A stretch of DNA of 56,142 nt from positions 1 to 56,142 of the IMG/VR virus record IMGVR_UViG_3300017910_000401, one strand, 5' to 3'. Shown one piece after another: positions 2,452-55,204 of this stretch. Origin of the DNA: a virus. Taxonomy: Duplodnaviria > Caudoviricetes. Positions within the stretch are counted from its first letter, which is position 1, and every line of letters starts with the position of its first letter. The position numbers and the translations under genes were made by a program. The notes below the pieces were generated by a model. The model was not told the DNA's origin, did not search any database, and worked only from the letters and a program-made list of their open reading frames with translations.

Positions 2452-2495
2452 AACACCACAGATTTCCATAGCTCCAAACGGAATCTGTAAAATAT

Positions 2496-2511
2496 TATTC
2501 ACTAGTGAATA
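2496..2511. promoter_or_regulatory. Perfect copy of a recurrent palindromic site, TATTCACTAGTGAATA
   Basis: 16-bp perfect palindrome; about 10 degenerate copies elsewhere in the window. Confidence 0.6.
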
Positions 2512-2582
2512 TAATTACATCTCAGAGCCTCTCTGGATTAATTAAGCTGTCTTGGAGCTTCGTACACCAGTGATAGATTAGG

Positions 2583-3041: not shown

Positions 3042-3084
3042 AAAAAAAAAGGCGGTAGCTACCTGTAAAAGTAGCTACCGCCTT
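3042..3084 (-). terminator. Rho-independent terminator of the leftward early operon
   Basis: GGCGGTAGCTAC-8 nt loop-GTAGCTACCGCC followed by T9 on the minus strand, just after the stop at 3093. Confidence 0.9.
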
Positions 3085-3092
3085 AATTTTAT

Positions 3093-3842
3093 TTATTCCT
3101 CTTCTGGAATATAAATTATCTCTGATTCTCCACGACCATTAAGATATGCCAAAGCATCGTTCTTATTGATTGTTTTCTCAAAGAGATTTGTATTATGCCT
3201 TTTAGTCACGTTGGATTTGTCTCCTAAGTTGCCATTCATTAGCCACCTATCAGCAAACCAATTCGCCCTATCCTTATCTAGTGTCCAAGAAAACCCTTTA
3301 TCATCCATGCCACCACGAAAGATTGTTATCTCTTCAGGCAAAGAATCAAAAAAGGCTTTCTCTTTTTCATCCATCATTAGATGAGGATTTGCATATTGTT
3401 CTGTTAATAAACTTTTCCAAGAATATTTGTTTTGATATATATTCTCGGAGTCTATCCAAGCAGAAACAATAACATCCCAATATTCCTCATCGGAATCTGG
3501 AATCCACCAATCAGCATAAGCATTTAACAAAGCATCATGCCTGTAAGGTCTTTCATGCAAATAGATAAATCTATGAATATCGTTTTGTTCAATAGCATCT
3601 TGCACTTGAAGAACCTTAGCTTCATATTGCAAGTTGTATTGAGTTATATTCAAAGGATTATCTTCTGACATTGGCACGACAACCAACAAAGGATGATGAA
3701 TCATTTTTCCAAAAGAAGCTTCCTCGATTCTCTCTTTCAAGTCAGCATTCAATTCAACCTTCTTACTGAAGTCAAAATTAGTCATGCTTTCTAAAGAAAA
3801 GAGTTTACCAAGTTGTTCTTGTATTTCTCGCAGTCTATCCAT
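3093..3842 (-). CDS. Putative R-S-E-type ADP-ribosyltransferase-fold protein
   Basis: C-terminal ITIFRG ... GFSWT ... A..FA ... RGESEII resembles the ART catalytic R, S and ExE motifs. Confidence 0.5.
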   Translation of the reverse strand: MDRLREIQEQLGKLFSLESMTNFDFSKKVELNADLKERIEEASFGKMIHHPLLVVVPMSEDNPLNITQYNLQYEAKVLQVQDAIEQNDIHRFIYLHERPYRHDALLNAYADWWIPDSDEEYWDVIVSAWIDSENIYQNKYSWKSLLTEQYANPHLMMDEKEKAFFDSLPEEITIFRGGMDDKGFSWTLDKDRANWFADRWLMNGNLGDKSNVTKRHNTNLFEKTINKNDALAYLNGRGESEIIYIPEEE

Positions 3843-3846
3843 AACT

Positions 3847-4362
3847 CTATTTGATATCTGCTTTTCCGAACCATTTCATATACGTCTTTACGAGAAAATT
3901 CATAAGACGACTTGGATTATTTTTAAATCCAAAAGGCGGATAATAGCCTTTAGGATAAACCCATATATGATATTGGTTAGAAGTGTTTACAAGATGATGA
4001 GAAGGCGGAAATAATTCCACCCCCCATCTTTGCTTACCATCTGGCACTAGGGCATTTTTGATTTCGTATAAATCTTCCCAAGACCTTAGAGGTTTCTTAT
4101 CAAGTCTTTTGATAGATAGATAAGTCATACCTTCGGTCATTTCCCTAGAAAAAACATCGTTGCTTTCATGTACTAAAACTTGATAAGTATCGTTCATAAA
4201 AACAGGAGTTTTATCTTGGTCAGAAATTAATTTTTCCAATAACTTAGAATCAAAATTTATCCCTAGTTGAGTTTTCATAACTTTCTTTAAGTCTTTTACT
4301 CTTTCCTCCATTGGAAGATTGAGAGGATTAAAGTGTGCCTTTTCAAAGTTGTCAATACTCAT
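3847..4362 (-). CDS. Phage protein of unknown function
   Basis: Motif LSIKR...SWEDLYEIKN...VELFP....LVN..NQYHIW, recalled as a widespread phage family. Confidence 0.65.
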   Translation of the reverse strand: MSIDNFEKAHFNPLNLPMEERVKDLKKVMKTQLGINFDSKLLEKLISDQDKTPVFMNDTYQVLVHESNDVFSREMTEGMTYLSIKRLDKKPLRSWEDLYEIKNALVPDGKQRWGVELFPPSHHLVNTSNQYHIWVYPKGYYPPFGFKNNPSRLMNFLVKTYMKWFGKADIK

Positions 4363-4556
4363 GCTTCCTCCATGTTCGGATTATAAGCAACAATATCAAT
4401 CTTATATTTCAAAGTTTTTATTGTTTCCAAGTGGTATTTATTAAAAGTTTTTTGGTCAATTAACTTTGCGAATTTCTTTGCAGTGTTGCAAAAAGGATAG
4501 CAAAGGTCATTACCATAAACATTTTTATAGAATACCTTCATATTTAAATTATTCAT
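4359..4556 (-). CDS. Small hypothetical phage protein
   Basis: 65 aa, KNVYGNDLCYP motif, strong GGAGGT RBS. Confidence 0.75.
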   Translation of the reverse strand: MNNLNMKVFYKNVYGNDLCYPFCNTAKKFAKLIDQKTFNKYHLETIKTLKYKIDIVAYNPNMEEA

Positions 4557-4608
4557 AAGACCTCCATCTTATAAAAATTAGTTTAAAAAAGTTGGCTTGT
4601 AAGCCAAC

Positions 4609-4707
4609 ACCTAGACCAGAACAATCAGGTGAAAATTATTCGCTAGTGAATAATATTTTTTTATCTTGTTCTGGTTTCGATTGAATCTCACAATCTCCTC
4701 AGTAGGT
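4609..4707 (-). ncRNA. Hammerhead ribozyme HH-A (type I), predicted cut GUC between 4614 and 4613
   Basis: ACCUA-CUGAGGA-GAUUG(UGAGAUU)CAAUC-GAAA-CCAGAACAA...UUGUUCUGG-UC/UAGGU; complete core and three stems. Confidence 0.92.
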
Positions 4708-5343
4708 TTAAGTCTCTGTAAAAGTTATAGTTATACCATCACTTACAAGACCAGATACGTTTGCAAAAATACTCATAACAATTGTGTCAATTTCGTACTT
4801 TGCTTCGTAAAGTGTGTCGCATCTAAAATTTTTAGAAAAAGGCACAGCAGTTTCAAAATCATACCAAGCCATTTTGAAATTTGGATAAACGACATAATGT
4901 TTAAGATGATTATTTCTAGCAATAACAAAGTTTCGATAAAGATATTCTTTCCAATCTTTATTTTCTGATACTTTTGCTATTGCCATTTGATTACGAAGAA
5001 ACTCATAAGCTTCAGGAAAATCTTTATAAGCTTTTTGCACTTTGACTTTTGTCTTGTGCCAATCGCTTTCCTTTGGCTCTGCTTTCATTTTGTGATAAAA
5101 ATCTTTAAGACGTTTATTACACTTTTCAAAATCATCCATGAGCATAAGATATCTATGAGTTAGATTACCTTTTGCGATACAAACCTTATATTCAAAATCA
5201 AGTTTATTAAGAATATTTTTAATGGTATGTGACGTTGAATGATAACCGCTTTCATAGTAGCTTCGCATTGAATTAGGACAATTAGGATAACTGTCTAATT
5301 TTGTTTTGCTCATTTCTAAAGCATCTTTCAATAATTTTTCCAT
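4708..5343 (-). CDS. Hypothetical early protein
   Basis: 211 aa with GGAGGT RBS. Confidence 0.75.
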   Translation of the reverse strand: MEKLLKDALEMSKTKLDSYPNCPNSMRSYYESGYHSTSHTIKNILNKLDFEYKVCIAKGNLTHRYLMLMDDFEKCNKRLKDFYHKMKAEPKESDWHKTKVKVQKAYKDFPEAYEFLRNQMAIAKVSENKDWKEYLYRNFVIARNNHLKHYVVYPNFKMAWYDFETAVPFSKNFRCDTLYEAKYEIDTIVMSIFANVSGLVSDGITITFTET

Positions 5344-5370
5344 AAGACCTCCATCTTATAAAAGTTAATT

Positions 5371-5457
5371 AAACTGATTTCGGCTCTTTTGAGCCACCCT
5401 CCTAAAAGGGTACGTTTTCACGTTCATCAGGCAAAACACACATTTTGCTATCAGTTT
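5371..5457 (-). ncRNA. Hammerhead ribozyme HH-B (type III variant with extra hairpins), predicted cut AUA between 5449 and 5448
   Basis: AAACUGAUA/GCAAAA(UGUGUG)UUUUGC-CUGAUGA-[three hairpins]-GAAAUCAGUUU. Confidence 0.75.
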
Positions 5458-5500
5458 TTAAAATTAGACCTCCATACAGGCTCATAGAGGGCAAAACTAA

Positions 5501-5541
5501 TAGCAAGTGATATCTGAGTACCCCTCAAATATCACTCGCTA
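5501..5541 (-). other. 18-bp RNA hairpin after the VWA gene stop
   Basis: UAGCGAGUGAUAUUUGAG-GGGUA-CUCAGAUAUCACUUGCUA, with two G-U pairs on the minus strand. Confidence 0.7.
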
Positions 5542-5552
5542 ATAGAAAGTTT

Positions 5553-6893
5553 TTAGTCGTAGAATCTAGCAGTATCTACATAGACCACCTCGCCAAAGGC
5601 AAGACGTTCTGAATAACTGCTTTTTTCAGTACAACACCAAAACACAGGAACATCAGGCTCAACGTCTTCAGAAACGTCTCCCCAACCATCGGTAAAATAC
5701 ACTAAGGCTTGAACGTCTTCGGCATCATCAGTGTAGTCATTCAACAGATTAAATACAGGGTCAAACTCTGTACCGCCACCGCCACGAACTACTAACTCTA
5801 ATTCATCGCCTGAAGATAAATCATAGTAATCCCACCATTCCCCCTGTCCATTTTTACGAACAGTTGTGTCACAGTAGCAAACTCTGATTTTTTCAAGACC
5901 GCAGTCTTCCGCCATAGCTTGTATCTCAGTAGCAAATTTATTCAATTCGTATTGAGATACAGAACCTGAAGTATCGATTGCAACCGCTAACTCGCCACCT
6001 TGTGGAGACCTAGTTTTACTCGGCAAATTTAAACCTTGCCATGCAAACCTTTTATTCAGTCTCGACCATGAGTAATCGTTAGCAACAGAAGAACGTAAAA
6101 GGTCATTCAATTGTTCTTTCCAATCAATTGAAGTCTCTTTCAATTCTTCCATTCTGCCACCGCAAGACGAATTAGTACCGCTTCCAACAGCTACTTCTAG
6201 CTTGTCAGATAAGGCTACTGCTCTTTGAATCTCAGTTGAGATTTCTTGAATCTCAGCATCACTCAATGGCTTTCCTTCATCGTCAGTTGCATCCAACACC
6301 TCGCCAATAGTTGAAGGAATAGCATCTAAATCAATCGACTCAGATTCTTCGCCATCTTCGTCAGTTTCTTCATCAGAAATATTTCCTTCACTAGTGTCTG
6401 GTATTTCAGAATCTTGCGAATCATCCTCCATGTCCGCATTCTGATTTTGTTCCTTGACTTGCTCGATTGCTTCTTGCAGGTCATCTTCATTTTTAATTAA
6501 ATGTTGATAAACCTTTTCCGCAGACCAACCCTTGTATTTATGGTCAAGTAAACCGCCAAAAGGCAATTCAAAATTTAAATCCCAATACAAGTAAGCATTG
6601 ATAACGTAATCACAAGCAATATTCCATACTTTAGGATGACGTTTACCACGTCTTAGTGGATGTTCATAAACAACGTGCAATGCTTCGTGAACAAGTACAC
6701 CTCGCAATTCTGCTTCGGTTAATTTATCCACGAATGGCGGATAGTAAAAAATGTTTTTACCATCAGTCGCCATCGTATCGCACTTTGATTCTTCACATTC
6801 AACCAAGTCAAGATTAAGGAGCATACTAGCCATGCCAATATGCCCTTTCATCAATTTTGCTCTAGCCTTAATTATGGTTTCAAGAGTTTTCAT
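5553..6893 (-). CDS. DUF2201-type protein: HExxH metallopeptidase-like N-domain plus VWA domain
   Basis: TMATDG, LVHEALH, WNIACDYVIN, MIDAS motif DTSGS, GGGGTEF, YFTDG. The start is probably the ATG at 6893 (RBS GGAGGT upstream) rather than 6908. Confidence 0.88.
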   Translation of the reverse strand: MKTLETIIKARAKLMKGHIGMASMLLNLDLVECEESKCDTMATDGKNIFYYPPFVDKLTEAELRGVLVHEALHVVYEHPLRRGKRHPKVWNIACDYVINAYLYWDLNFELPFGGLLDHKYKGWSAEKVYQHLIKNEDDLQEAIEQVKEQNQNADMEDDSQDSEIPDTSEGNISDEETDEDGEESESIDLDAIPSTIGEVLDATDDEGKPLSDAEIQEISTEIQRAVALSDKLEVAVGSGTNSSCGGRMEELKETSIDWKEQLNDLLRSSVANDYSWSRLNKRFAWQGLNLPSKTRSPQGGELAVAIDTSGSVSQYELNKFATEIQAMAEDCGLEKIRVCYCDTTVRKNGQGEWWDYYDLSSGDELELVVRGGGGTEFDPVFNLLNDYTDDAEDVQALVYFTDGWGDVSEDVEPDVPVFWCCTEKSSYSERLAFGEVVYVDTARFYD

Positions 6894-7866
6894 CTTTCTT
6901 ACCTCCATAAATTTTGTCGAACAAATTGCCTTTCAATCCATCAATAGATTGTTCAAGACCTTCGGCAACCTGTTCACGTTTTTGCTTTCCTAAATCTGTT
7001 TCGTCTCTAAGAGAATCAACAGAATTTATTGTTGCAAGAACAGAACAAAGACTTTGATGAGCATCAGCAATATTTTTATTATTGCCTAGTACATCCTGAT
7101 TAATAGAAGGTAGCACTTCAACCGCTTGTCTCAATTTCTCGAAACTAGATTTGTTGAAGAATCCGCCCTTCTGCTTGTTGTCAGGGTCATACTCTTTGAG
7201 TTTAGTCGCAACGTGATTAACTTGTTCTAGTAAAGCATCAACAGTAATTGTCATTACGTTTTTGATGTTTTTGTTAGACCTGTTAATCGCATCCGCTTCT
7301 ATTCTCTGCCTTAACTTTTCTGAGACGTTAAGTCTAATATCGTTTCCGAAAGTAGGTACAGGAGTCATTTCAAATTGAAACAAAAACTTTTGTCTTAATT
7401 TGTCAAAATCAATGTAGTCACTTTCTCTGAAAGCATCGCCCAAGTTTCTCTTCGCCATTTCCATTTGTTTAGGATAGCTTCTGAGAAAGCCTTGAACTTC
7501 TTTATCCCAAACAAGAGTAGCTTGGTCTACTTCATACTGAAGTCGTTCAAGATTCGTGTTAGGGCAAAGTCGCCATTCCGATAAAACTTTTCCCTCGTCA
7601 TCAAGGGATGAAGAATCATCCCACGGCAAAGTTAAAGGTTTATAAAAGTCATTCCTAAACTTATCTAAAATTTGGCGAAACTCTTTATTGATATTTCGAC
7701 CAAAGATGTGTTTAGAAACACCTAACAATTTATCGTCTGATACTTTCGTATCTTCCGCTAAACCGCTTCTCAATTTCTTATCGACTTTAATGCCTGATGG
7801 ATGTCTTGCAGTAAGACGAACCAACATACAATTTTCCGATAAGGTATTTGTTAATTTTTTATCCAT
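6880..7866 (-). CDS. Helical partner of the AAA/VWA module (possibly DUF3150-like)
   Basis: 328 aa, TLPWDD...WRLCP motif; lies between the AAA and VWA genes. Confidence 0.55.
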   Translation of the reverse strand: MDKKLTNTLSENCMLVRLTARHPSGIKVDKKLRSGLAEDTKVSDDKLLGVSKHIFGRNINKEFRQILDKFRNDFYKPLTLPWDDSSSLDDEGKVLSEWRLCPNTNLERLQYEVDQATLVWDKEVQGFLRSYPKQMEMAKRNLGDAFRESDYIDFDKLRQKFLFQFEMTPVPTFGNDIRLNVSEKLRQRIEADAINRSNKNIKNVMTITVDALLEQVNHVATKLKEYDPDNKQKGGFFNKSSFEKLRQAVEVLPSINQDVLGNNKNIADAHQSLCSVLATINSVDSLRDETDLGKQKREQVAEGLEQSIDGLKGNLFDKIYGGKKDENS

Positions 7867-7896
7867 ATTAGAACCTCCATTCTGTTAGATAAAAGT

Positions 7897-7952
7897 TATC
7901 TGATTTCACAGTTTTCTGCTCGTCAGTTGGAATCACATTCCAATATCAGATA
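7897..7952 (-). ncRNA. Hammerhead ribozyme HH-C (compact type III), predicted cut AUA between 7944 and 7943
   Basis: UAUCUGAUA/UUGGAA(UGUGA)UUCCAA-CUGACGA-GCAG(AAAA)CUGU-GAAAUCAGAUA. Confidence 0.9.
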
Positions 7953-7958
7953 TTGAAG

Positions 7959-8013
7959 TGAGCAAGATGTAATTTTATTCACTAGCGAATAATATTTTTT
8001 TACATCTCGCCCA
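7959..8013 (-). other. Long RNA hairpin after the AAA gene stop, capped by the recurrent palindrome
   Basis: UGGGCGAGAUGUAA pairs with UUACAUCUUGCUCA (14 bp, two G-U pairs on the minus strand). Confidence 0.7.
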
Positions 8014-8027
8014 ATTCAGTTTTCAAC

Positions 8028-9077
8028 CTAGACTTCTAAGTCTTGATTCCTGATTTTAAAATCGGAATAAGTAGAAGTTTCTGCTAAGTCTGGAATTGCT
8101 CCAATCAAAGAACGAACATAGAAAATCGCAAATTCAGGAGTAGGTAATTTCTCAACATAGTTAAGACTATTTTGAAAATAATTAGCTACATTTGGATTAT
8201 CCATTTCCGATTTAAGAATCGAAACTAATGCACAAACTAGAGCATAAGATTTACCGCCCTCATCAATCATTTCTACGTCTTTGCCTTCACAAATATCTTG
8301 AACATTCGGCAAGTCATTTTTCAAAGACAAAAAGGTAAGAAATTCAATCGAAGCAGTCTCGCCAATATCCCCTTCACAAACTAGTTGCAAAATTTCTTTT
8401 GGCGGATTCGTTTTCAATGTATCAGAAAGACGAACCCAAGAACGTGGACTCGGCTGGGGAGTCGTAATTTTTGGGTCAAAGTCGCAAAGGTACTGAGGCT
8501 CATAACTAATGAATCCCAATACGTCAGGACTTACATCATTCTCAGTCGCCCAAGAAATCCAATCGTTAATGTTTTCATCTACATTCAACATTGTGCATCT
8601 GTCATTGACTTGCGTAGGAATTTTATTTGCTCCTGCTCTGTCAGTTGCCCTGTTTCCTGCACAAACAATTTTCCACCCATCAGGCAAAACGTACTCTCCG
8701 ATTTTTCTTTCATAGAGTAATTGTCCGCACACACACATGACCGAAGAATGAGCCTGAGCAAATTCATCAAAAAATAATATGCCCTCGCCACCAATTGGGA
8801 GATTACCTAAGAAGGCTCTCTTTTGTTGGTTATCTTCGTCTATGTAAGGCAAACCGCCTAAATCAACAGTCTCATAAAGTGACAGTCTAAAATCAATAAA
8901 TCCAAACTGTTTTTTAGTTGGATTGATTGAATTAACAATCTCTCTATCTTCTGCAAATTCTTCGGCTAGTTTCCTAACAATTGCACTTTTTCCAATCCCC
9001 GGTTTCCCTTGCAGGTAAGGGGTATTAGAACCCTTTAATATCGATTTCATCGATAATATAGCTTGACTCGGTTTCAT
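8028..9077 (-). CDS. MoxR/AAA_5-like AAA+ ATPase
   Basis: Walker A GKPGIGKS, Walker B LFFDE, AGNR, PSPRSW. Confidence 0.9.
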   Translation of the reverse strand: MKPSQAILSMKSILKGSNTPYLQGKPGIGKSAIVRKLAEEFAEDREIVNSINPTKKQFGFIDFRLSLYETVDLGGLPYIDEDNQQKRAFLGNLPIGGEGILFFDEFAQAHSSVMCVCGQLLYERKIGEYVLPDGWKIVCAGNRATDRAGANKIPTQVNDRCTMLNVDENINDWISWATENDVSPDVLGFISYEPQYLCDFDPKITTPQPSPRSWVRLSDTLKTNPPKEILQLVCEGDIGETASIEFLTFLSLKNDLPNVQDICEGKDVEMIDEGGKSYALVCALVSILKSEMDNPNVANYFQNSLNYVEKLPTPEFAIFYVRSLIGAIPDLAETSTYSDFKIRNQDLEV

Positions 9078-9130
9078 ATAAGACCTCCATCTTTTATACC
9101 AAGTTAGAATTCGTTAGCAGAATTGCTAAC

Positions 9131-9211
9131 ACCTAGAAGCAACCTTTTTACAGGCTAGACTTAAATCTATTTAATGCTTTTCGCTAGAGTTTCACTAGCA
9201 CGTCAGTAGGT
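9131..9211 (-). ncRNA. Hammerhead ribozyme HH-D (type I, A9U core variant), predicted cut UUC between 9136 and 9135
   Basis: ACCUA-CUGACGU-GCUAG(UGAAACU)CUAGC-GAAA-AGCA...UGCU-UC/UAGGU; overlaps the stop codon of the upstream ORF. Confidence 0.8.
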
Positions 9212-9625
9212 TTCTCTAAGAACTTCTTTTCCTAAAGTTAAATCGTAATGAATCTCCCTCGTTAGTTTAGGACTTTTAGTCTTGTCAATCCTAATCCAAT
9301 TATTAGATTCTTTGTCCTGATAAAGTCTAGGCTCAAAGTAAATATGAGTCTCGTTATCGTTCATTTGATATTTTTCAAATGAGGGAATCCAATCATCAGA
9401 TTCCATTCTCCAATCGATAAAATCATACCTAGTCATTACGTTGTCTTTTTTAATTAATTTAATTAAAGGCAAAATCTCTTTTACCAATTCAAGACTTTCA
9501 CTTGAAGAAATATCCTCAATTACGAACTCAGTTAATCCTTTAGGCTTCCAATAATCATTACCTTCCGCAGGATTTTCTACGTTGTAATTTGCAAATGTCT
9601 GAAAAGTTAATACTAATTTGCTCAT
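9203..9625 (-). CDS. Hypothetical early protein
   Basis: 140 aa, QTFANY...YWKPKG motif, GGAGG RBS. Confidence 0.75.
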   Translation of the reverse strand: MSKLVLTFQTFANYNVENPAEGNDYWKPKGLTEFVIEDISSSESLELVKEILPLIKLIKKDNVMTRYDFIDWRMESDDWIPSFEKYQMNDNETHIYFEPRLYQDKESNNWIRIDKTKSPKLTREIHYDLTLGKEVLRETY

Positions 9626-9680
9626 TTTTTTCTAACCCTCCATTAGTTAGTTATTAAAATAGTTGGCATTATTGCCAACC

Positions 9681-9743
9681 ACCTAGACCAACCCAAATTA
9701 ATTGAGTTGGTTTCGCCTGAATTTCACAGGCTCTTCAGTAGGT
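9681..9743 (-). ncRNA. Hammerhead ribozyme HH-E (canonical type I), predicted cut GUC between 9686 and 9685
   Basis: ACCUA-CUGAAGA-GCCUG(UGAAAUU)CAGGC-GAAA-CCAACUCAA(UUAAU)UUGGGUUGG-UC/UAGGU. Confidence 0.95.
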
Positions 9744-10049
9744 TTAGAATTGTTGAATAACATATCCTCCGCAATCAGTTTCTAAAACTGTGGTCACATC
9801 TTTTATGCTCTCCAATGTTGAATAAATTGTGCTTGTTCCATTGATTGAATAATCAGCAATCAATTCATCAACATTTTTATATTCCGCATAATCACAACAA
9901 ATGGCAATCACATCTAATTCTAAATTTTCCAATTCAGACAAATGCTCGTACAAAGCCTTTAACCCTTCTCTTGAAAAGTTGTTGGCATATTGTCCTGAGT
10001 TTCCAAATTCATTAATGAATTGATTTTCGTTTAAAGTTTTATATATCAT
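9744..10049 (-). CDS. Hypothetical early phage protein
   Basis: 101 aa, NFSREGLKALYE...ELDVIAICCDYAEY motif, GGAGG RBS. Confidence 0.75.
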   Translation of the reverse strand: MIYKTLNENQFINEFGNSGQYANNFSREGLKALYEHLSELENLELDVIAICCDYAEYKNVDELIADYSINGTSTIYSTLESIKDVTTVLETDCGGYVIQQF

Positions 10050-10093
10050 TTTCTATCCTCCACGATAGTTAGATAAGAGACTTAATTGTCTCT

Positions 10094-10159
10094 CCTCCTG
10101 AGTTTCTTGAATCCAATTAAGGATTCTCATTCAGCACGTTAATTCGTGGACTCTGGAGG
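10094..10159 (-). ncRNA. Hammerhead ribozyme HH-F (type III variant with kissing loops), predicted cut GUC between 10149 and 10148
   Basis: CCUCC-A-GAGUC/CACG(AAUUAA)CGUG-CUGAAUGA-GAAUCC(UUAAUU)GGAUUC-AA-GAAACUC-A-GGAGG. Confidence 0.8.
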
Positions 10160-10408
10160 GAGTCTCCCAATCGCAGTAATTATTCCAAACGTCACTACTA
10201 AACCGCAAAAGGGATTACAGGCTTCATGGCTTATGCTCGACCTGTATTGTTCATCGTACCCTGCACGTTGCAGACCTAGAGAACCCTCACTGTTTTAGGA
10301 CAATCGCTGTGAGCCGACCTGCAACAAATGACACTTTAATTCGCATATTGCATGACGAAAGACCCTTAAAAAAGGGAGGGTCAAAAGTCGCTGTTGTCTG
10401 TCCATGCA
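10160..10408 (-). ncRNA. Structured 5' leader or candidate ncRNA of the early operon
   Basis: No credible ORF on this strand; stems UGCAUG/CAUGCA, GACCCU/AGGGUC, GUUGCAGGUC/GGUCUGCAAC (G-U pairs), CUCAC/GUGAG and UACAGG/CCUGUA. Confidence 0.5.
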
Positions 10409-10411
10409 GTA

Positions 10412-10441
10412 ATTATAAACACAAGACACACCAGAACACAA
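10412..10441 (-). promoter_or_regulatory. Candidate early promoter
   Basis: Perfect -10 TATAAT at 10417-10412; weak -35 TTGTGT at 18-nt spacing. Confidence 0.5.
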
Positions 10442-52862: not shown

Positions 52863-53290
52863 ATATCGGCATCTCCTTGTGCGACAATATTTGTCACCAG
52901 TGAATAATATTTTTTTGGCGTAATAACAAGCTCACATCTAGCGTCACTTTTATCCACACCCCCAAACTTATAGACTATTTTATCTATCTCGTTATAGCTA
53001 TCATCTGCTAACACACCTGCTTTTACTAAAGCATCACAGGTAAATTTGTCTATTATGGAACAAGGATTGCTCACATCTAAACGTCTCTTGCTCTTGGCAA
53101 AATAAGTGTATTCCAAGATAACAGGCTCAGTAAAAGGCTTTATGCCCTTTAAACTAGCTTGTAGGTTCTCTGAGTACAACTTTTTAGCAGTAGCTAACAC
53201 CCTGTAATGTGCGTTGCGATAATTATTTAAGTTCAAGATAAACTTCTTATTCTTTGAATAATAAACTTCTAGCGGTAATTTAATCTGCAT
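52859..53290 (-). CDS. rusA: RusA-like Holliday junction resolvase
   Basis: RRLDVSN...DALVKAGVLADDS acidic catalytic pattern. Confidence 0.7.
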   Translation of the reverse strand: MQIKLPLEVYYSKNKKFILNLNNYRNAHYRVLATAKKLYSENLQASLKGIKPFTEPVILEYTYFAKSKRRLDVSNPCSIIDKFTCDALVKAGVLADDSYNEIDKIVYKFGGVDKSDARCELVITPKKYYSLVTNIVAQGDADI

Positions 53291-54748: not shown

Positions 54749-54996
54749 GCTTCCCCCTTTTTTATATCATGCTTCACATTTTTTAATCTTTCAGATAAAT
54801 CATGTTCATTTGTTTTGATTTTTTTGTGACCAAACATTTCATTAAATACCTGTTGAGCCATACTTCTTGAGTACGGCTCTTCGTTATGACCCAACTTTTC
54901 TTTCGTGTTCATAAAAAACCATCTAGTAAAATTAGCTTCGTATGGTTCGCTGTCTTCAAATTCAAACTTCATCTGTGCCTCCAAAATATTATTCAC
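54745..54996 (-). CDS. Hypothetical protein
   Basis: 83-aa ORF; the internal ATG after GGAGG may be the true start. Confidence 0.55.
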   Translation of the reverse strand: MNNILEAQMKFEFEDSEPYEANFTRWFFMNTKEKLGHNEEPYSRSMAQQVFNEMFGHKKIKTNEHDLSERLKNVKHDIKKGEA

Positions 54997-55204
54997 TAGT
55001 TAAGAGATTTTTTGTCATTTCACTCAGTTCATACAAAACCATTTTATAACTATGCACAGGTATCTCTTGGTTATTGTCATTAGCTGACTCGAAATGATTA
55101 ATACAATACTCAATATGATTGTGTATTTTTTCTAAACCCTCTTTTAACTGACGTTTTTCTACGTCTCCCAATTTCTTGATAGACTTAGAACGGAATGTCG
55201 TCAT
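54989..55204 (-). CDS. Hypothetical protein
   Basis: 71-aa ORF in the leftward operon. Confidence 0.5.
   Translation of the reverse strand: MTTFRSKSIKKLGDVEKRQLKEGLEKIHNHIEYCINHFESANDNNQEIPVHSYKMVLYELSEMTKNLLTSE

What the first reader, a model, noticed from the sequence alone, without database searches (positions are those of the whole stretch)
4591..10159. Early operon punctuated by six hammerhead ribozymes: a self-processing polycistronic mRNA
Seen: the leader and all five large intergenic gaps of the leftward operon contain a sense-strand hammerhead fold (CUGANGA-like core...GAAA...NUH, with stems I-III). Positions are 10094-10159, 9681-9743, 9131-9211, 7897-7952, 5371-5457 and 4609-4707; predicted cuts follow 10149, 9686, 9136, 7944, 5449 and 4614. 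Stem sequences differ between copies while pairing and core are kept (stem II GCCUG/CAGGC, GAUUG/CAAUC, GCUAG/CUAGC). HH-A and HH-E start at the first base after a stop codon. Established: hammerheads self-cleave to leave 2',3'-cyclic phosphate and 5'-OH ends; 5'-OH RNAs are poor substrates for the 5'-monophosphate-stimulated RNase E pathway; T7 cuts its early polycistron with host RNase III. Inference: this phage gets T7-like segmentation of its early transcript with no protein, producing separately stabilised mRNA units. Scattered hammerheads are known in phages and metagenomes, but I am not aware of a description of a whole operon punctuated this way.
Basis: partly seen in the sequence, partly recalled or inferred. 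Interest (0 to 1): 0.97.

Follow-up and report, generated by a model that had tools for sequence, protein, structure and literature searches.

The report
Hammerhead ribozymes punctuating a phage operon
An uncultured marine phage has a self-cutting hammerhead RNA motif in the leader and in every gap of one operon, probably to cut the long message into separately protected pieces; the layout is real and conserved but has been known in phages since 2011.

Summary
All six hammerhead-shaped elements are on the sense (minus) strand at the stated coordinates, and the predicted cuts follow 10149, 9686, 9136, 7944, 5449 and 4614.

Three are canonical: 9681-9743, 7897-7952 and 4609-4707. Three are variants:
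- 9131-9211 has U in place of A9.
- 5371-5457 has a 28-nt two-hairpin insert between A9 and stem II.
- 10094-10159 has an 8-nt CUGAAUGA box and an extra AA before GAAA.

A strict descriptor finds 3 hits in the window, against 0.08 per shuffled window. In 58 related marine viral contigs, a relaxed descriptor finds 201 sense-strand hits and 0 antisense. Hammerheads sit at the same intergenic sites (53 of 54 loci, 44 of 45 loci), and their stems covary strongly. Rfam's curated hammerhead models miss all of them at their thresholds.

The best reading is cis self-cleavage that splits one transcript into about six units. I also found a design rule: type I copies carry an extra hairpin just 3' of the cut, and type III copies carry one just 5' of it, so every product has structured ends.

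Perreault et al. 2011 described and tested clustered hammerheads in prophage polycistrons, and this scan has noted such arrays many times on other DNA. No cleavage or RNA-end evidence exists here, and "early" is not shown.

The parts
10094..10159 (-). Stem III is GAGU/ACUC, extended by CCUCC/GGAGG. C17 is at 10149. Stem I is CACG/CGUG with loop AAUUAA. The core is the 8-nt CUGAAUGA. Stem II is GAAUCC/GGAUUC with loop UUAAUU. An extra AA precedes GAAA.
   Evidence: Sequence. MFE fold -21.9 kcal/mol, z -3.56. A class of 27 distinct relatives was found by loop motif alone; in the 22 subclass-1 members 7 of 14 pairs show compensatory changes and 95.5% of cells are paired. Not found by R1 or R2.
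9681..9743 (-). Canonical type I hammerhead. It starts at the first base after the stop codon of ORF 9744-10049. Cut after C at 9686.
   Evidence: 76.6 bits; z -4.16. Rfam RAGATH-1-hammerhead scores 35.5 bits, below its gathering score of 56.3.
9662..9679 (-). Companion hairpin GUUGGCA-AUAA-UGCCAAC, one base 3' of stem I. It would lie near the 5' end of the downstream product.
   Evidence: Sequence. Flank statistics for type I copies. Homologous hairpins with different sequences in relatives.
9131..9211 (-). Type I hammerhead variant with core CUGACGU (U at position 9). The UGA stop codon of ORF 9203-9625 is U4-G5-A6 of the core. Stem III is branched into two hairpins. Cut predicted after C at 9136.
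   Evidence: R1 scores 47.4 bits, E 1.3e-9, not in training. U9 is kept in L004, L005, L006 and L007. Homologues L039 and L046 have canonical A9. Weak fold, z -0.91, with U9 paired to G12.
9113..9130 (-). Companion hairpin GUUAGCA-AUUC-UGCUAAC directly 3' of stem I.
   Evidence: Sequence.
7960..8012 (-). Long companion hairpin 5' of the type III hammerhead. Its tip is the palindrome AAUAUUAUUCGCUAGUGAAUAA. It would be the 3'-terminal structure of the ATPase mRNA unit.
   Evidence: Sequence. Present with covarying outer stem in all listed AAA|p328 gaps. Flank statistics. Palindrome copies.
7897..7952 (-). Canonical type III hammerhead with a G-U pair at 10.1-11.1. Cut after A at 7944.
   Evidence: (66.3 bits). 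A hammerhead at the syntenic site in 53 of 54 loci. 14 of 16 pairs show compensatory changes.
5469..5541 (-). Two companion hairpins (5541-5501, 18 bp; 5490-5469, 8 bp) between the DUF2201/VWA stop codon and the next hammerhead.
   Evidence: (listed as terminator-like stems).
5371..5457 (-). Type III hammerhead with a 28-nt insert of two abutting hairpins (ACGU-GAAA-ACGU and ACCCUU-UUAG-GAGGGU, as folded) between A9 and stem II (GGCUC-AAAA-GAGCC). Cut predicted after A at 5449.
   Evidence: local match 30.7 bits; z -5.40. The same insert architecture occurs in 10 distinct insert sequences at two genomic sites in relatives, with compensatory changes. Uninserted orthologues carry the same stem II (L007).
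4609..4707 (-). Canonical type I hammerhead. It starts at the first base after the stop codon of ORF 4708-5343. Stem III has 10 bp and carries the palindrome hairpin in its loop. Cut after C at 4614.
   Evidence: (63.9 bits, not in training).
4591..4608 (-). Companion hairpin GUUGGCU-UACA-AGCCAAC followed by U6. It is either a 5' hairpin of the last unit or a weak terminator.
3049..3084 (-). Strong terminator-like hairpin (16 bp followed by T7) that probably ends the transcription unit.

Best explanation
The minus-strand, non-structural operon of this uncultured marine phage runs from a promoter somewhere above 10160 to the terminator near 3049. It is transcribed as one RNA that carries six cis-acting hammerhead ribozymes.

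Self-cleavage leaves a 2',3'-cyclic phosphate and a 5'-OH. If all six copies cut, the units are:
- leader
- p101, 463 nt
- p140, 550 nt
- ATPase, 1192 nt
- p328 plus DUF2201/VWA, 2495 nt
- p211, 835 nt
- p65-p171-p249, about 1570 nt

Each unit ends in structure on both sides. A type I ribozyme stays on the 3' end of the upstream unit, and a separate hairpin heads the downstream unit. A type III ribozyme stays on the 5' end of the downstream unit, and a separate long hairpin caps the upstream unit.

The likely benefit is gene-by-gene control of mRNA stability and ribosome-site context, independent of host RNases. This resembles the engineered RiboJ insulator.

Shown: the motifs, their strand, synteny, covariation and core conservation, and the companion hairpins. 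Inferred: co-transcription, cleavage itself, and its effect on stability. The three canonical copies very probably cut. The U9, 8-nt-core and branched copies may be slow, conditional or inactive.
For: 1. Strict descriptor: 3 hits in the window, all sense strand, against 0.08 per shuffled window.
2. Relatives: 74 sense and 1 antisense strict hits in 516,618 bases of 58 related loci. Relaxed descriptor: 201 sense and 0 antisense. Model R1: 91 of 91 matches on the sense strand.
3. Synteny: a hammerhead lies between the ATPase and p328 genes in 53 of 54 loci, and after the VWA gene in 44 of 45 loci.
4. Covariation with invariant core letters:
   - Type I: 12 of 18 pairs compensatory, 100% of cells paired, slid controls 21-39%. 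RNAalifold predicts the same fold unaided.
   - Type III: 14 of 16 pairs compensatory.
   - Leader class: 7 of 14 pairs compensatory, in sequences not selected for pairing.
5. In two complete relatives (59.7 kb and 57.7 kb), every R1 or R2 match lies in one block of about 5 kb.
6. Companion hairpins:
   - Type I: 30-nt 3' flank MFE -6.9, 5' flank -2.3, background -2.9; the 3' flank is the more stable in 44 of 52 contexts.
   - Type III: 75-nt 5' flank -22.2, 3' flank -10.7, background -13.4; the 5' flank is the more stable in 80 of 85 contexts.
7. Stop codons: in 33 of the 41 type I contexts that have an upstream ORF, the stop codon abuts or overlaps the ribozyme.
8. Precedent: triple hammerhead arrangements in prophage polycistrons cleave in vitro and in vivo (PMC3088659).
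9. RiboJ (a hammerhead plus a hairpin ahead of the ribosome site) raised transcript abundance about 2-fold and protein 2- to 10-fold in E. coli (PMC6206723, passages).
10. No terminator-like site with a convincing U-tract lies between the genes, except the hairpin at 4608-4591. A strong one lies at 3084-3049.
Against: - No Rfam hammerhead family reaches its gathering score. The whole window gives 0 matches, and 12 of the 58 related loci give 0. RF00008 reaches at best 16.5 bits against 48.5. RF00163 gives nothing. RAGATH-1-hammerhead reaches 35.5 against 56.3.
- Three of the six copies break the core consensus:
  - U9 at 9131-9211 can pair with G12. From my own knowledge, G12 is the catalytic general base.
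  - An extra base after A6 at 10094-10159 is a change reported to give low activity (PMC3088659 section 8). This copy also has an extra AA before G12.
  - A 28-nt insert interrupts the core at 5371-5457.
- There is no direct evidence of transcription as one unit, of cleavage, or of RNA ends. The promoter scan found no sigma-70-like site for the operon.
- The host is unknown. In hosts with RNase J-type 5' exonucleases, a 5'-OH can promote decay rather than protect (recalled from glmS work, not from a call).
- Related sequences share ancestry, so the flank statistics and shuffle controls overstate independence.
Confidence: 0.75

Rival explanations
1. The elements are hammerhead-derived structures that no longer cut. 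They would be kept only as stable RNA folds: 3' or 5' end protectors after host RNase processing, ribosome-spacing devices at stop codons, or protein-binding sites.
For: Rfam hammerhead models fail at threshold. Three of the six window copies carry core deviations. Long perfect hairpins beside the type III copies could themselves be RNase III-type sites.
Against: The letters that stay invariant across the aligned copies are those of the catalytic core (CUGA-GA, GAAA, U16.1), while all helices change freely. A purely structural role would not hold single-stranded core letters fixed. Canonical copies meet the criteria under which Perreault et al. found activity.
Confidence: 0.08
2. Some copies are conditional. 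In the leader class, an anti-Shine-Dalgarno CCUCC lies 6-7 nt 5' of the cut and pairs with GGAGG 3' of stem III. Cleavage, followed by self-folding of the released 5' piece, would free the ribosome site. The branched 5371-5457 type would respond to a ligand or protein through its inserted arm.
For: 21 of 22 subclass-1 leader hammerheads carry CUCC 6-7 nt before C17, and 21 of 22 have GGAG downstream of the core. In relatives that GGAGG is the start-codon-proximal ribosome site. In the MFE fold of the window copy, CCUCC/GGAGG extends stem III. The 16-nt 5' product folds into a hairpin using the stem III strand in 21 of 22 by RNAfold; in 19 of these the upstream strand pairs with stem III's 5' strand around the CCUCC loop, in three covarying versions. 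The inserts are conserved and covarying. The 8-nt and 7-nt core forms alternate between close relatives: 11 of 27 have 8 nt.
Against: In the window itself, the paired GGAGG (10098-10094) is not the ribosome site of p101 (10061-10057). The 5' hairpins are weak (-1.8 to -4.7 kcal/mol). CCUCC/GGAGG cannot covary, so the pairing is not proven. No ligand or factor is suggested by any result.
Confidence: 0.2
3. Cleavage mainly marks RNAs for decay or sets a timer (down-regulation), as with glmS. It would not stabilise the units.
For: The host is unknown. 5'-OH ends are degraded by RNase J1 in some bacteria (recalled, no call). Slow core variants could act as delay elements.
Against: Companion hairpins are placed exactly where a product end would otherwise be unstructured. 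That is hard to explain if products are meant to be destroyed. RiboJ-like processing raises expression in E. coli.
Confidence: 0.1
4. The conserved ribozyme modules act chiefly at the DNA level, as recombination linkers that let small accessory genes be swapped between phages. RNA cleavage would be secondary.
For: Close relatives keep the same leader hammerhead and the same U9 hammerhead but have different small genes between them. Stem I arms of type I copies are nearly invariant in sequence: ACCWA/UWGGU, with 3 of 5 pairs never varying.
Against: This does not explain compensatory changes in stems II and III or the strict sense-strand bias. It is compatible with, not an alternative to, RNA function.
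Confidence: 0.1
5. Units excised between two ribozymes that share arms re-ligate into circular mRNAs through the reverse hammerhead reaction.
For: The three type I copies share identical stem I arms (ACCUA/UAGGU). The two canonical-type type III copies share CUGAU/AUCAG in stem III.
Against: Perreault et al. looked for spliced or circular products of clustered hammerheads and detected none (PMC3088659). Shared arms are partly forced by the core-adjacent consensus.
Confidence: 0.04

Closest known systems
Clustered hammerhead ribozymes flanking single genes or short gene blocks in prophages (Perreault et al. 2011, PMC3088659)
   Same: Several cis hammerheads of mixed types lie on the coding strand between genes of one phage transcription unit. 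The flanked genes vary. Processing into gene-length mRNAs was proposed. U10.1-U11.1 mismatches, very short stems and an insertion after A6 occur as natural variants.
   Different: Here there are six in 5.6 kb, one in every gap plus the leader, in a non-integrated marine phage lineage with no cultured relative (best ATPase identity to any phage record 31.5%). I did not see the following rules in the parts of that paper I read: companion hairpins reciprocal to ribozyme type, stop-codon abutment, and a recurrent two-hairpin insert at A9/10.1.
RAGATH-1 hammerhead (Rfam RF03152)
   Same: Type I layout with a 5-bp stem I, a GUC cleavage triplet and a long closed stem III. It is the only Rfam family that aligns end to end with 9681-9763.
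   Different: The score of 35.5 bits is well below the gathering score of 56.3. The Rfam consensus has a nearly absent stem II and an upstream hairpin. The phage copies have a regular 5-bp stem II with a conserved 7-nt loop (UGARAYU), and coding sequence lies upstream.
RNase III processing of the phage T7 early polycistronic mRNA
   Same: A long phage transcript is cut between cistrons, leaving hairpin structures at product ends. This is functional analogy only, recalled from textbook knowledge.
   Different: In T7 the cut is made by a host protein at double-stranded sites and leaves 5'-phosphate and 3'-OH. Here the RNA would cut itself and leave 5'-OH and a 2',3'-cyclic phosphate.
RiboJ synthetic insulator (sTRSV hammerhead plus a 23-nt hairpin upstream of the ribosome site; PMC6206723)
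   Same: The order of parts matches the type I units here: ribozyme, cut, hairpin, ribosome site. RiboJ removes upstream context and raises transcript and protein levels in E. coli.
   Different: RiboJ is engineered and used singly at promoter junctions. In RiboJ the ribozyme body stays on the downstream RNA.

Membership tests
Hammerhead ribozyme (consensus criteria as in Perreault et al. 2011, Methods) | Core letters C3 U4 G5 A6 N7 G8 A9 ... G12 A13 A14 A15.1 ... U16.1 H17 are all present and uninterrupted. | tested here: inconclusive
   Met by 9681-9743, 7897-7952 and 4609-4707. 5371-5457 has every letter but a 28-nt insert between A9 and 10.1. Not met by 9131-9211 (U9), nor by 10094-10159 (extra base in the box and AA before G12).
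Hammerhead ribozyme (consensus criteria as in Perreault et al. 2011, Methods) | Three helices radiate from the core and are supported by compensatory changes. | tested here: met
   Type I: 12 of 18 pairs. Type III: 14 of 16 pairs. Leader class: 7 of 14 pairs. Slid-register controls reach only 21-45% of cells paired. RNAalifold agrees.
Hammerhead ribozyme (consensus criteria as in Perreault et al. 2011, Methods) | No mispair directly next to the core (10.1-11.1, 1.1-2.1, 15.1-16.1). | tested here: met
   All six window copies have A15.1-U16.1 and paired 1.1-2.1. The 10.1-11.1 pair is G-C in five copies and G-U in 7897-7952. Many relatives have U-U there: 11 of 16 in alignment A4. That paper reports this mismatch as tolerated.
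Hammerhead ribozyme (consensus criteria as in Perreault et al. 2011, Methods) | A tertiary contact between stems I and II (loop-loop or pseudoknot) that gives fast cleavage at low Mg2+. | tested here: inconclusive
   Leader copy: loop 1 AAUUAA is the exact complement of loop 2 UUAAUU (lead from e1-6337838). In relatives loop 1 is invariant and loop 2 is partly complementary. Type III copies keep a UGUG-containing loop 1 and an A-rich loop 2. Type I copies keep loop 2 as UGARAYU, but no partner was identified.
Hammerhead ribozyme (consensus criteria as in Perreault et al. 2011, Methods) | Site-specific self-cleavage that gives a 2',3'-cyclic phosphate and a 5'-OH. | not testable with these tools
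   No biochemical tool is available. The two RNA runs holding parts of the region gave only sparse contigs of 151-194 nt.
Rfam hammerhead families (RF00008, RF00163, RF03152 and the others) | A score at or above the family's gathering threshold. | tested here: not met
   0 matches at gathering in the window and in 12 of the 58 related loci. RF00008 reaches at best 16.5 bits against 48.5. RF00163 gives none. RF03152 reaches 35.5 against 56.3.
Clustered hammerheads processing a phage polycistronic transcript | Several hammerheads lie on the coding strand between co-oriented genes of one unit. | tested here: met
   Six in 4609-10159, one in each of the five gaps longer than 4 nt plus the leader. 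All matches in complete relatives lie in one block.
Clustered hammerheads processing a phage polycistronic transcript | The genes are co-transcribed, so that the ribozymes are internal to one RNA. | not testable with these tools
   This is inferred only. Genes are tightly packed or overlapping, no sigma-70-like promoter was called for the operon, and one strong terminator lies at 3084-3049.

The most novel reading that the evidence does not exclude
Two of the six copies would be natural ribozyme devices, not plain cutters.

1. The 5371-5457 type would be an active hammerhead built on a perfect four-way junction. A GNRA-capped hairpin and a second hairpin are inserted with no linker between A9 and stem II. 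This architecture recurs at two genomic sites in many relatives and could be a new active topology or an allosteric arm.
2. The leader class would couple cleavage to translation. An anti-Shine-Dalgarno CCUCC just 5' of the cut holds the ribosome site in an extension of stem III. After cleavage the released piece folds on itself and lets go. A one-base insertion in the CUGANGA box, toggled between close relatives, would tune the rate.
Probability: 0.2. Interest if true: 0.65.

Novelty: new member of a known kind. Interest (0 to 1): 0.38.

Why it matters
What bacterial and phage hammerheads are for has been open since 2011. A 2019 review still says more work is needed to define their purpose (PMC6765202).

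This phage group offers a clean comparative data set: 58 contigs with up to seven retained hits per locus (six in the window). It yields explicit, testable design rules:
- One ribozyme in every gap of the window's operon.
- Type I copies start at the stop codon.
- A companion hairpin always lies on the side of the cut that lacks the ribozyme body.

These rules predict that cleavage creates mRNA units with protected ends, which can be tested with ordinary reporter and half-life assays. The standard Rfam pipeline misses every copy, so such arrays are probably under-annotated in viral metagenomes. The finding does not reveal a new kind of system.

Tried and rejected
Approaches that led nowhere:
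- Rfam at gathering thresholds, on the window and on 12 of the 58 related loci, gave nothing. RF00008 and RF00163 searched directly on the record gave 16.5 bits and nothing. I therefore built my own descriptors and models.
- blastn of the 6.2-kb region against 50,697 phage records found no match. tblastn with the ATPase found only distant hits, at most 31.5% identity, in cyanophage, Vibrio, N4-like and other phages. No cultured relative is available.
- RNA evidence: two marine metatranscriptome runs hold about 5% of the sampled words. Laid on the region, they gave eight short contig pieces (151-194 nt) in or near coding parts, no joints and no pile-ups of ends. This says nothing for or against cleavage, expression or circular forms.
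- The type III model R2 did not find the leader element. It aligned the first inserted hairpin of 5371-5457 as if it were stem II. I rejected that register because uninserted orthologues (L007) carry the same GGCUC/GAGCC hairpin as their stem II.
- The first MAFFT alignment of all 25 type I copies (A1) misaligned the long stem III variants. I rebuilt it without six rows: the two long window copies (9131-9211 and 4609-4707), L006a, L039b, L046a and L054a (A2). A 30-row type III alignment (A3) mixed two stem II registers, so I reduced it to 16 rows (A4). The dropped rows were then recovered as matches or by the descriptor.
- In the flank statistics I dropped relaxed-descriptor hits with inserts over 45 nt as probable false positives: 10 of 201.
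- No tRNA lies in the window.
- The hairpins after type I copies are not general terminators. Only some are followed by a U-tract.
- Paper searches for a natural hammerhead with a hairpin insert at A9/10.1 or a four-way junction, and for marine-phage hammerhead operons, found no description. These searches cover only the held open-access library. Perreault's supplementary alignments and figures were not readable, so I do not claim these are absent from print.

Full report
WHAT THE WINDOW IS

The window is a 56,142-base viral record, estimated 95% complete, with no end repeats. GC content is 35%.

The plus-strand block from 10515 encodes small and large terminase, portal, tail-fibre and other virion proteins. 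The ends of the record carry primase/helicase and a Sak-like annealing protein.

The finding lies in a minus-strand block that is divergent from the terminase gene. Its ORFs are:
- 9744-10049 (101 aa)
- 9203-9625 (140 aa)
- 8028-9077 (349 aa, ATPase; PHROG 1297; weak Pfam AAA)
- 6880-7866 (328 aa)
- 5553-6908 (451 aa, DUF2201_N metallopeptidase-like plus DUF2201 VWA-like)
- 4708-5343, 4359-4556, 3847-4362 and 3093-3842

A 16-bp terminator-like hairpin with a T7 tail follows at 3084-3049. The block is non-structural. That it is "early" is an assumption.

CHECKING THE OBSERVATION

I read the minus strand and wrote a strict hammerhead descriptor. It returns three hits in the whole window on both strands, all in this operon and all on the sense strand: 9743-9681, 7952-7897 and 4707-4609. 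One hundred dinucleotide shuffles gave 0.08 hits per window and never three.

A relaxed descriptor allows a U-U pair at 10.1-11.1 and an insert after A9. It adds 5457-5371.

A covariance model of the type I form (R1) was built from 18 relatives plus 9681-9743. It scores the two untrained window copies at 63.9 bits (4609-4707) and 47.4 bits (9131-9211). The next hit in the window scores 12.8 bits.

The leader element 10094-10159 is found by neither model. It belongs to a class of its own (see "Variants" below).

All six sequences adopt the hammerhead-compatible fold as their minimum-energy structure. Each of the five gaps longer than 4 nt has one element.

No Rfam hammerhead family reaches its threshold. 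Only RAGATH-1-hammerhead aligns, to 9681-9763 at 35.5 bits against a gathering score of 56.3. Twelve of the related loci are also blank at gathering thresholds. I read this as a limit of the Rfam seeds, because of the comparative evidence that follows. It must still be counted against formal membership.

COMPARATIVE EVIDENCE

The DUF2201/VWA protein retrieved 58 related loci from viral contigs, at 24-97% identity. All but the most distant keep the ATPase-p328-VWA core.

Strand bias. Loci are oriented with the operon on the plus strand.
- The strict descriptor finds 74 sense hits and 1 weak antisense hit in 516,618 bases.
- The relaxed descriptor finds 201 sense and 0 antisense.
- R1 finds 91 matches at E of 0.01 or better, all on the sense strand.

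Synteny.
- A hammerhead lies between the ATPase and p328 genes in 53 of 54 loci. The exception, L005, has an 8-nt-box variant visible.
- One lies after the VWA gene in 44 of 45 loci.
- One lies within 250 nt upstream of the ATPase gene in 38 of 54 loci by the descriptor. R1 finds more, and the U9 form accounts for others.

Confinement. In two complete relatives (59.7 kb, and 57.7 kb with terminal repeats), every R1 or R2 match lies in one block of about 5 kb.

Covariation is strong while the core letters stay invariant.
- Type I: 12 of 18 pairs have compensatory changes and 100% of cells are paired. Slid controls give 21-39%. RNAalifold finds the same fold on its own.
- Type III: 14 of 16 pairs.
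- Caveat: the type I and type III sets were chosen by a descriptor that already demanded 3-4 pairs per helix, and the sequences are related. The helices are much longer than demanded, and the leader-class set below was not chosen by pairing.

VARIANTS IN THE WINDOW

9131-9211
- The core reads CUGACGU. The UGA stop codon of the 140-aa ORF is U4-G5-A6.
- The same U9 form is kept in four close relatives, once at a different genomic position. More distant homologues with the same branched stem III have A9.
- In the MFE fold U9 pairs with G12, and the fold is no better than shuffles (z -0.91).
- I rate this copy the least likely to cut well.

5371-5457
- All core letters are present, but 28 nt lie between A9 and stem II.
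- Orthologues without the insert have a single U there and the same stem II.
- The insert is not a one-off. Ten distinct insert sequences occur at both the ATPase|p328 site and the post-VWA site in 21 loci.
- Nine of the ten fold into two abutting hairpins with no linker: a 3-4 bp stem capped by GAAA, GCAA or GAGA, then a 6-11 bp stem. In the tenth (L022) the scanner-delimited insert shows 5 unpaired nt between them. Compensatory changes are present.
- That would make a perfect four-way junction. Selection clearly keeps it. Whether it cuts, cuts faster or is regulated cannot be told here.
- This scan has noted branched stem II hammerheads in other genomes too. Those notes are unchecked by me.

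10094-10159
- I recovered 27 distinct relatives by their invariant loop 1 (AAUUAA) followed by CUGA.
- In the 22 members of the main subclass, 7 of 14 pairs show compensatory changes and 95.5% of cells are paired.
- All 22 have AA between stem II and G12.
- 11 of the 27 have an 8-nt CUGAANGA box, and close relatives differ in this.
- Perreault et al. report low activity for an insertion after A6, and tolerance of U10.1-U11.1 (section 8).
- 21 of 22 carry CUCC 6-7 nt 5' of C17, and 21 of 22 carry GGAG 3' of the core. In the window, CCUCC (10159-10155) pairs with GGAGG (10098-10094) as an extension of stem III. In relatives that GGAGG is the ribosome site of the next gene. In the window it is not; the p101 site is at 10061-10057.
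- The 16 nt 5' of the cut can form a small hairpin that uses the stem III strand, in three covarying versions. This suggests a switch or a product-release device. It is only a suggestion.

HOW IT MOST LIKELY WORKS

Two regularities point to processing that creates protected mRNA units.

Stop-codon rule. Of 50 distinct type I contexts, 41 have an upstream ORF of at least 40 codons. In 23 of these the stop codon ends at the base before stem I. In 8 it is U4-G5-A6 of the core. In 2 it overlaps the arm. The ribozyme body therefore becomes the 3' tail of the upstream message, with its stop codon intact.

Companion-hairpin rule. The extra hairpins are reciprocal to ribozyme type.
- Type I: the 30 nt after stem I fold to -6.9 kcal/mol on average, against -2.3 before it and -2.9 for background. 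The 3' flank is the more stable in 44 of 52 contexts.
- Type III: the 75 nt before stem III fold to -22.2, against -10.7 after it and -13.4 for background. The 5' flank is the more stable in 80 of 85 contexts.
- In the window these hairpins are 9679-9662, 9130-9113 and 4608-4591 (after type I copies), and 8012-7960 and 5541-5469 (before type III copies).
- Every predicted product thus starts and ends in structure. The contexts are related, so the p-values overstate independence. The effect is large.

The engineered RiboJ part (hammerhead plus hairpin before a ribosome site) raised transcript about 2-fold and protein 2- to 10-fold in E. coli (PMC6206723). That shows such processing can raise expression.

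Cleavage, co-transcription and the stability effect remain inferred. The two metatranscriptome runs that hold fragments of the region were uninformative.

COMPARISON WITH WHAT IS KNOWN, AND NOVELTY

Perreault et al. [quoted passage not shown] They showed cleavage for three triple arrangements in vitro and for one in vivo, and they looked for circular or spliced products without finding any.

A 2019 review repeats the processing idea and calls the purpose unresolved.

This scan has flagged hammerhead-punctuated operons on other DNA many times, with up to 33 in one phage. I did not check those notes, and they do not count as support.

The architecture is therefore a new, clean and well-conserved member of a known kind.

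I did not find the following described in the parts of the literature I could read or search:
- the reciprocal companion-hairpin rule
- the stop-codon rule
- the recurrent linker-free two-hairpin insert
- the leader class with an anti-ribosome-site strand

VERDICT

- Observation: confirmed.
- Interpretation: partly supported.
- Probability that the canonical three self-cleave and segment the transcript: about 0.75.
- Probability that all six cut efficiently: perhaps one in three.
- Interest: 0.38.

Noticed in passing
window 2491-2516, 4632-4657, 7971-7996, 52886-52911, 54985-55006: A 22-nt palindrome (AATATTATTCRCTAGYGAATAA, up to 3 mismatches) occurs at five places, against none in 100 shuffles. 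All five lie in the minus-strand, non-structural parts of the genome. Twice it forms the tip of a longer hairpin beside or inside a hammerhead. It could be an operator for a dimeric regulator or an RNA hairpin (RNase III-like site). Relatives keep a similar ATTTACTRGTAAAT core in the ATPase|p328 gap.
   Followed up: partly
window 10160-10420 (minus strand): About 250 nt upstream of the leader hammerhead has no convincing sense ORF. The 371-nt stretch folds better than shuffles (z -2.67, 1 of 100 shuffles as good). If transcribed, cleavage at 10149 would release it as a separate structured RNA. No Rfam match. No sigma-70-like promoter was called here.
   Followed up: partly
L004, L005, L007 against window 9100-10160: Close relatives (ATPase 95-100% identical) keep the same leader hammerhead and the same U9 hammerhead but have different small genes between them. 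p101 and p140 of the window were found in none of the 58 loci. The ribozyme modules look like fixed boundaries of a variable gene-cassette region.
   Followed up: partly
leader-class hammerheads in L004-L058 (alignment A5): The catalytic box alternates between 7 nt (CUGANGA) and 8 nt (CUGAAUGA or CUGAACGA) among close relatives. 11 of 27 distinct sequences have 8 nt, which suggests repeated gain and loss of one base at a position where insertion is reported to slow cleavage.
   Followed up: partly
window 9636-9655, 7868-7885, 5344-5362, 4557-4575 (minus strand): The Shine-Dalgarno GGAGG of the operon's genes sits in the loop of a small hairpin whose stem differs from gene to gene (for example CUAAC...GUUAG, AGAA...UUCU, UAAGA...UCUUA). 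This was seen by eye.
   Followed up: no
window 5553-6908 (minus strand): PHROG 1314 labels this protein 'HNH endonuclease'. Pfam shows DUF2201_N (putative metallopeptidase) plus a DUF2201 VWA-like domain. The PHROG name looks like a mislabel. The ATPase-plus-VWA pair is widespread in N4-like and other phages.
   Followed up: no
type I hammerheads, window 9744-9735 and 4710-4701, and relatives: The usual context is TAA ACC WAC TGA, that is, two in-frame stop codons. The second is U4-G5-A6 of the ribozyme core. When the first is missing, the ORF simply ends in the core, as at 9203-9205.
   Followed up: partly
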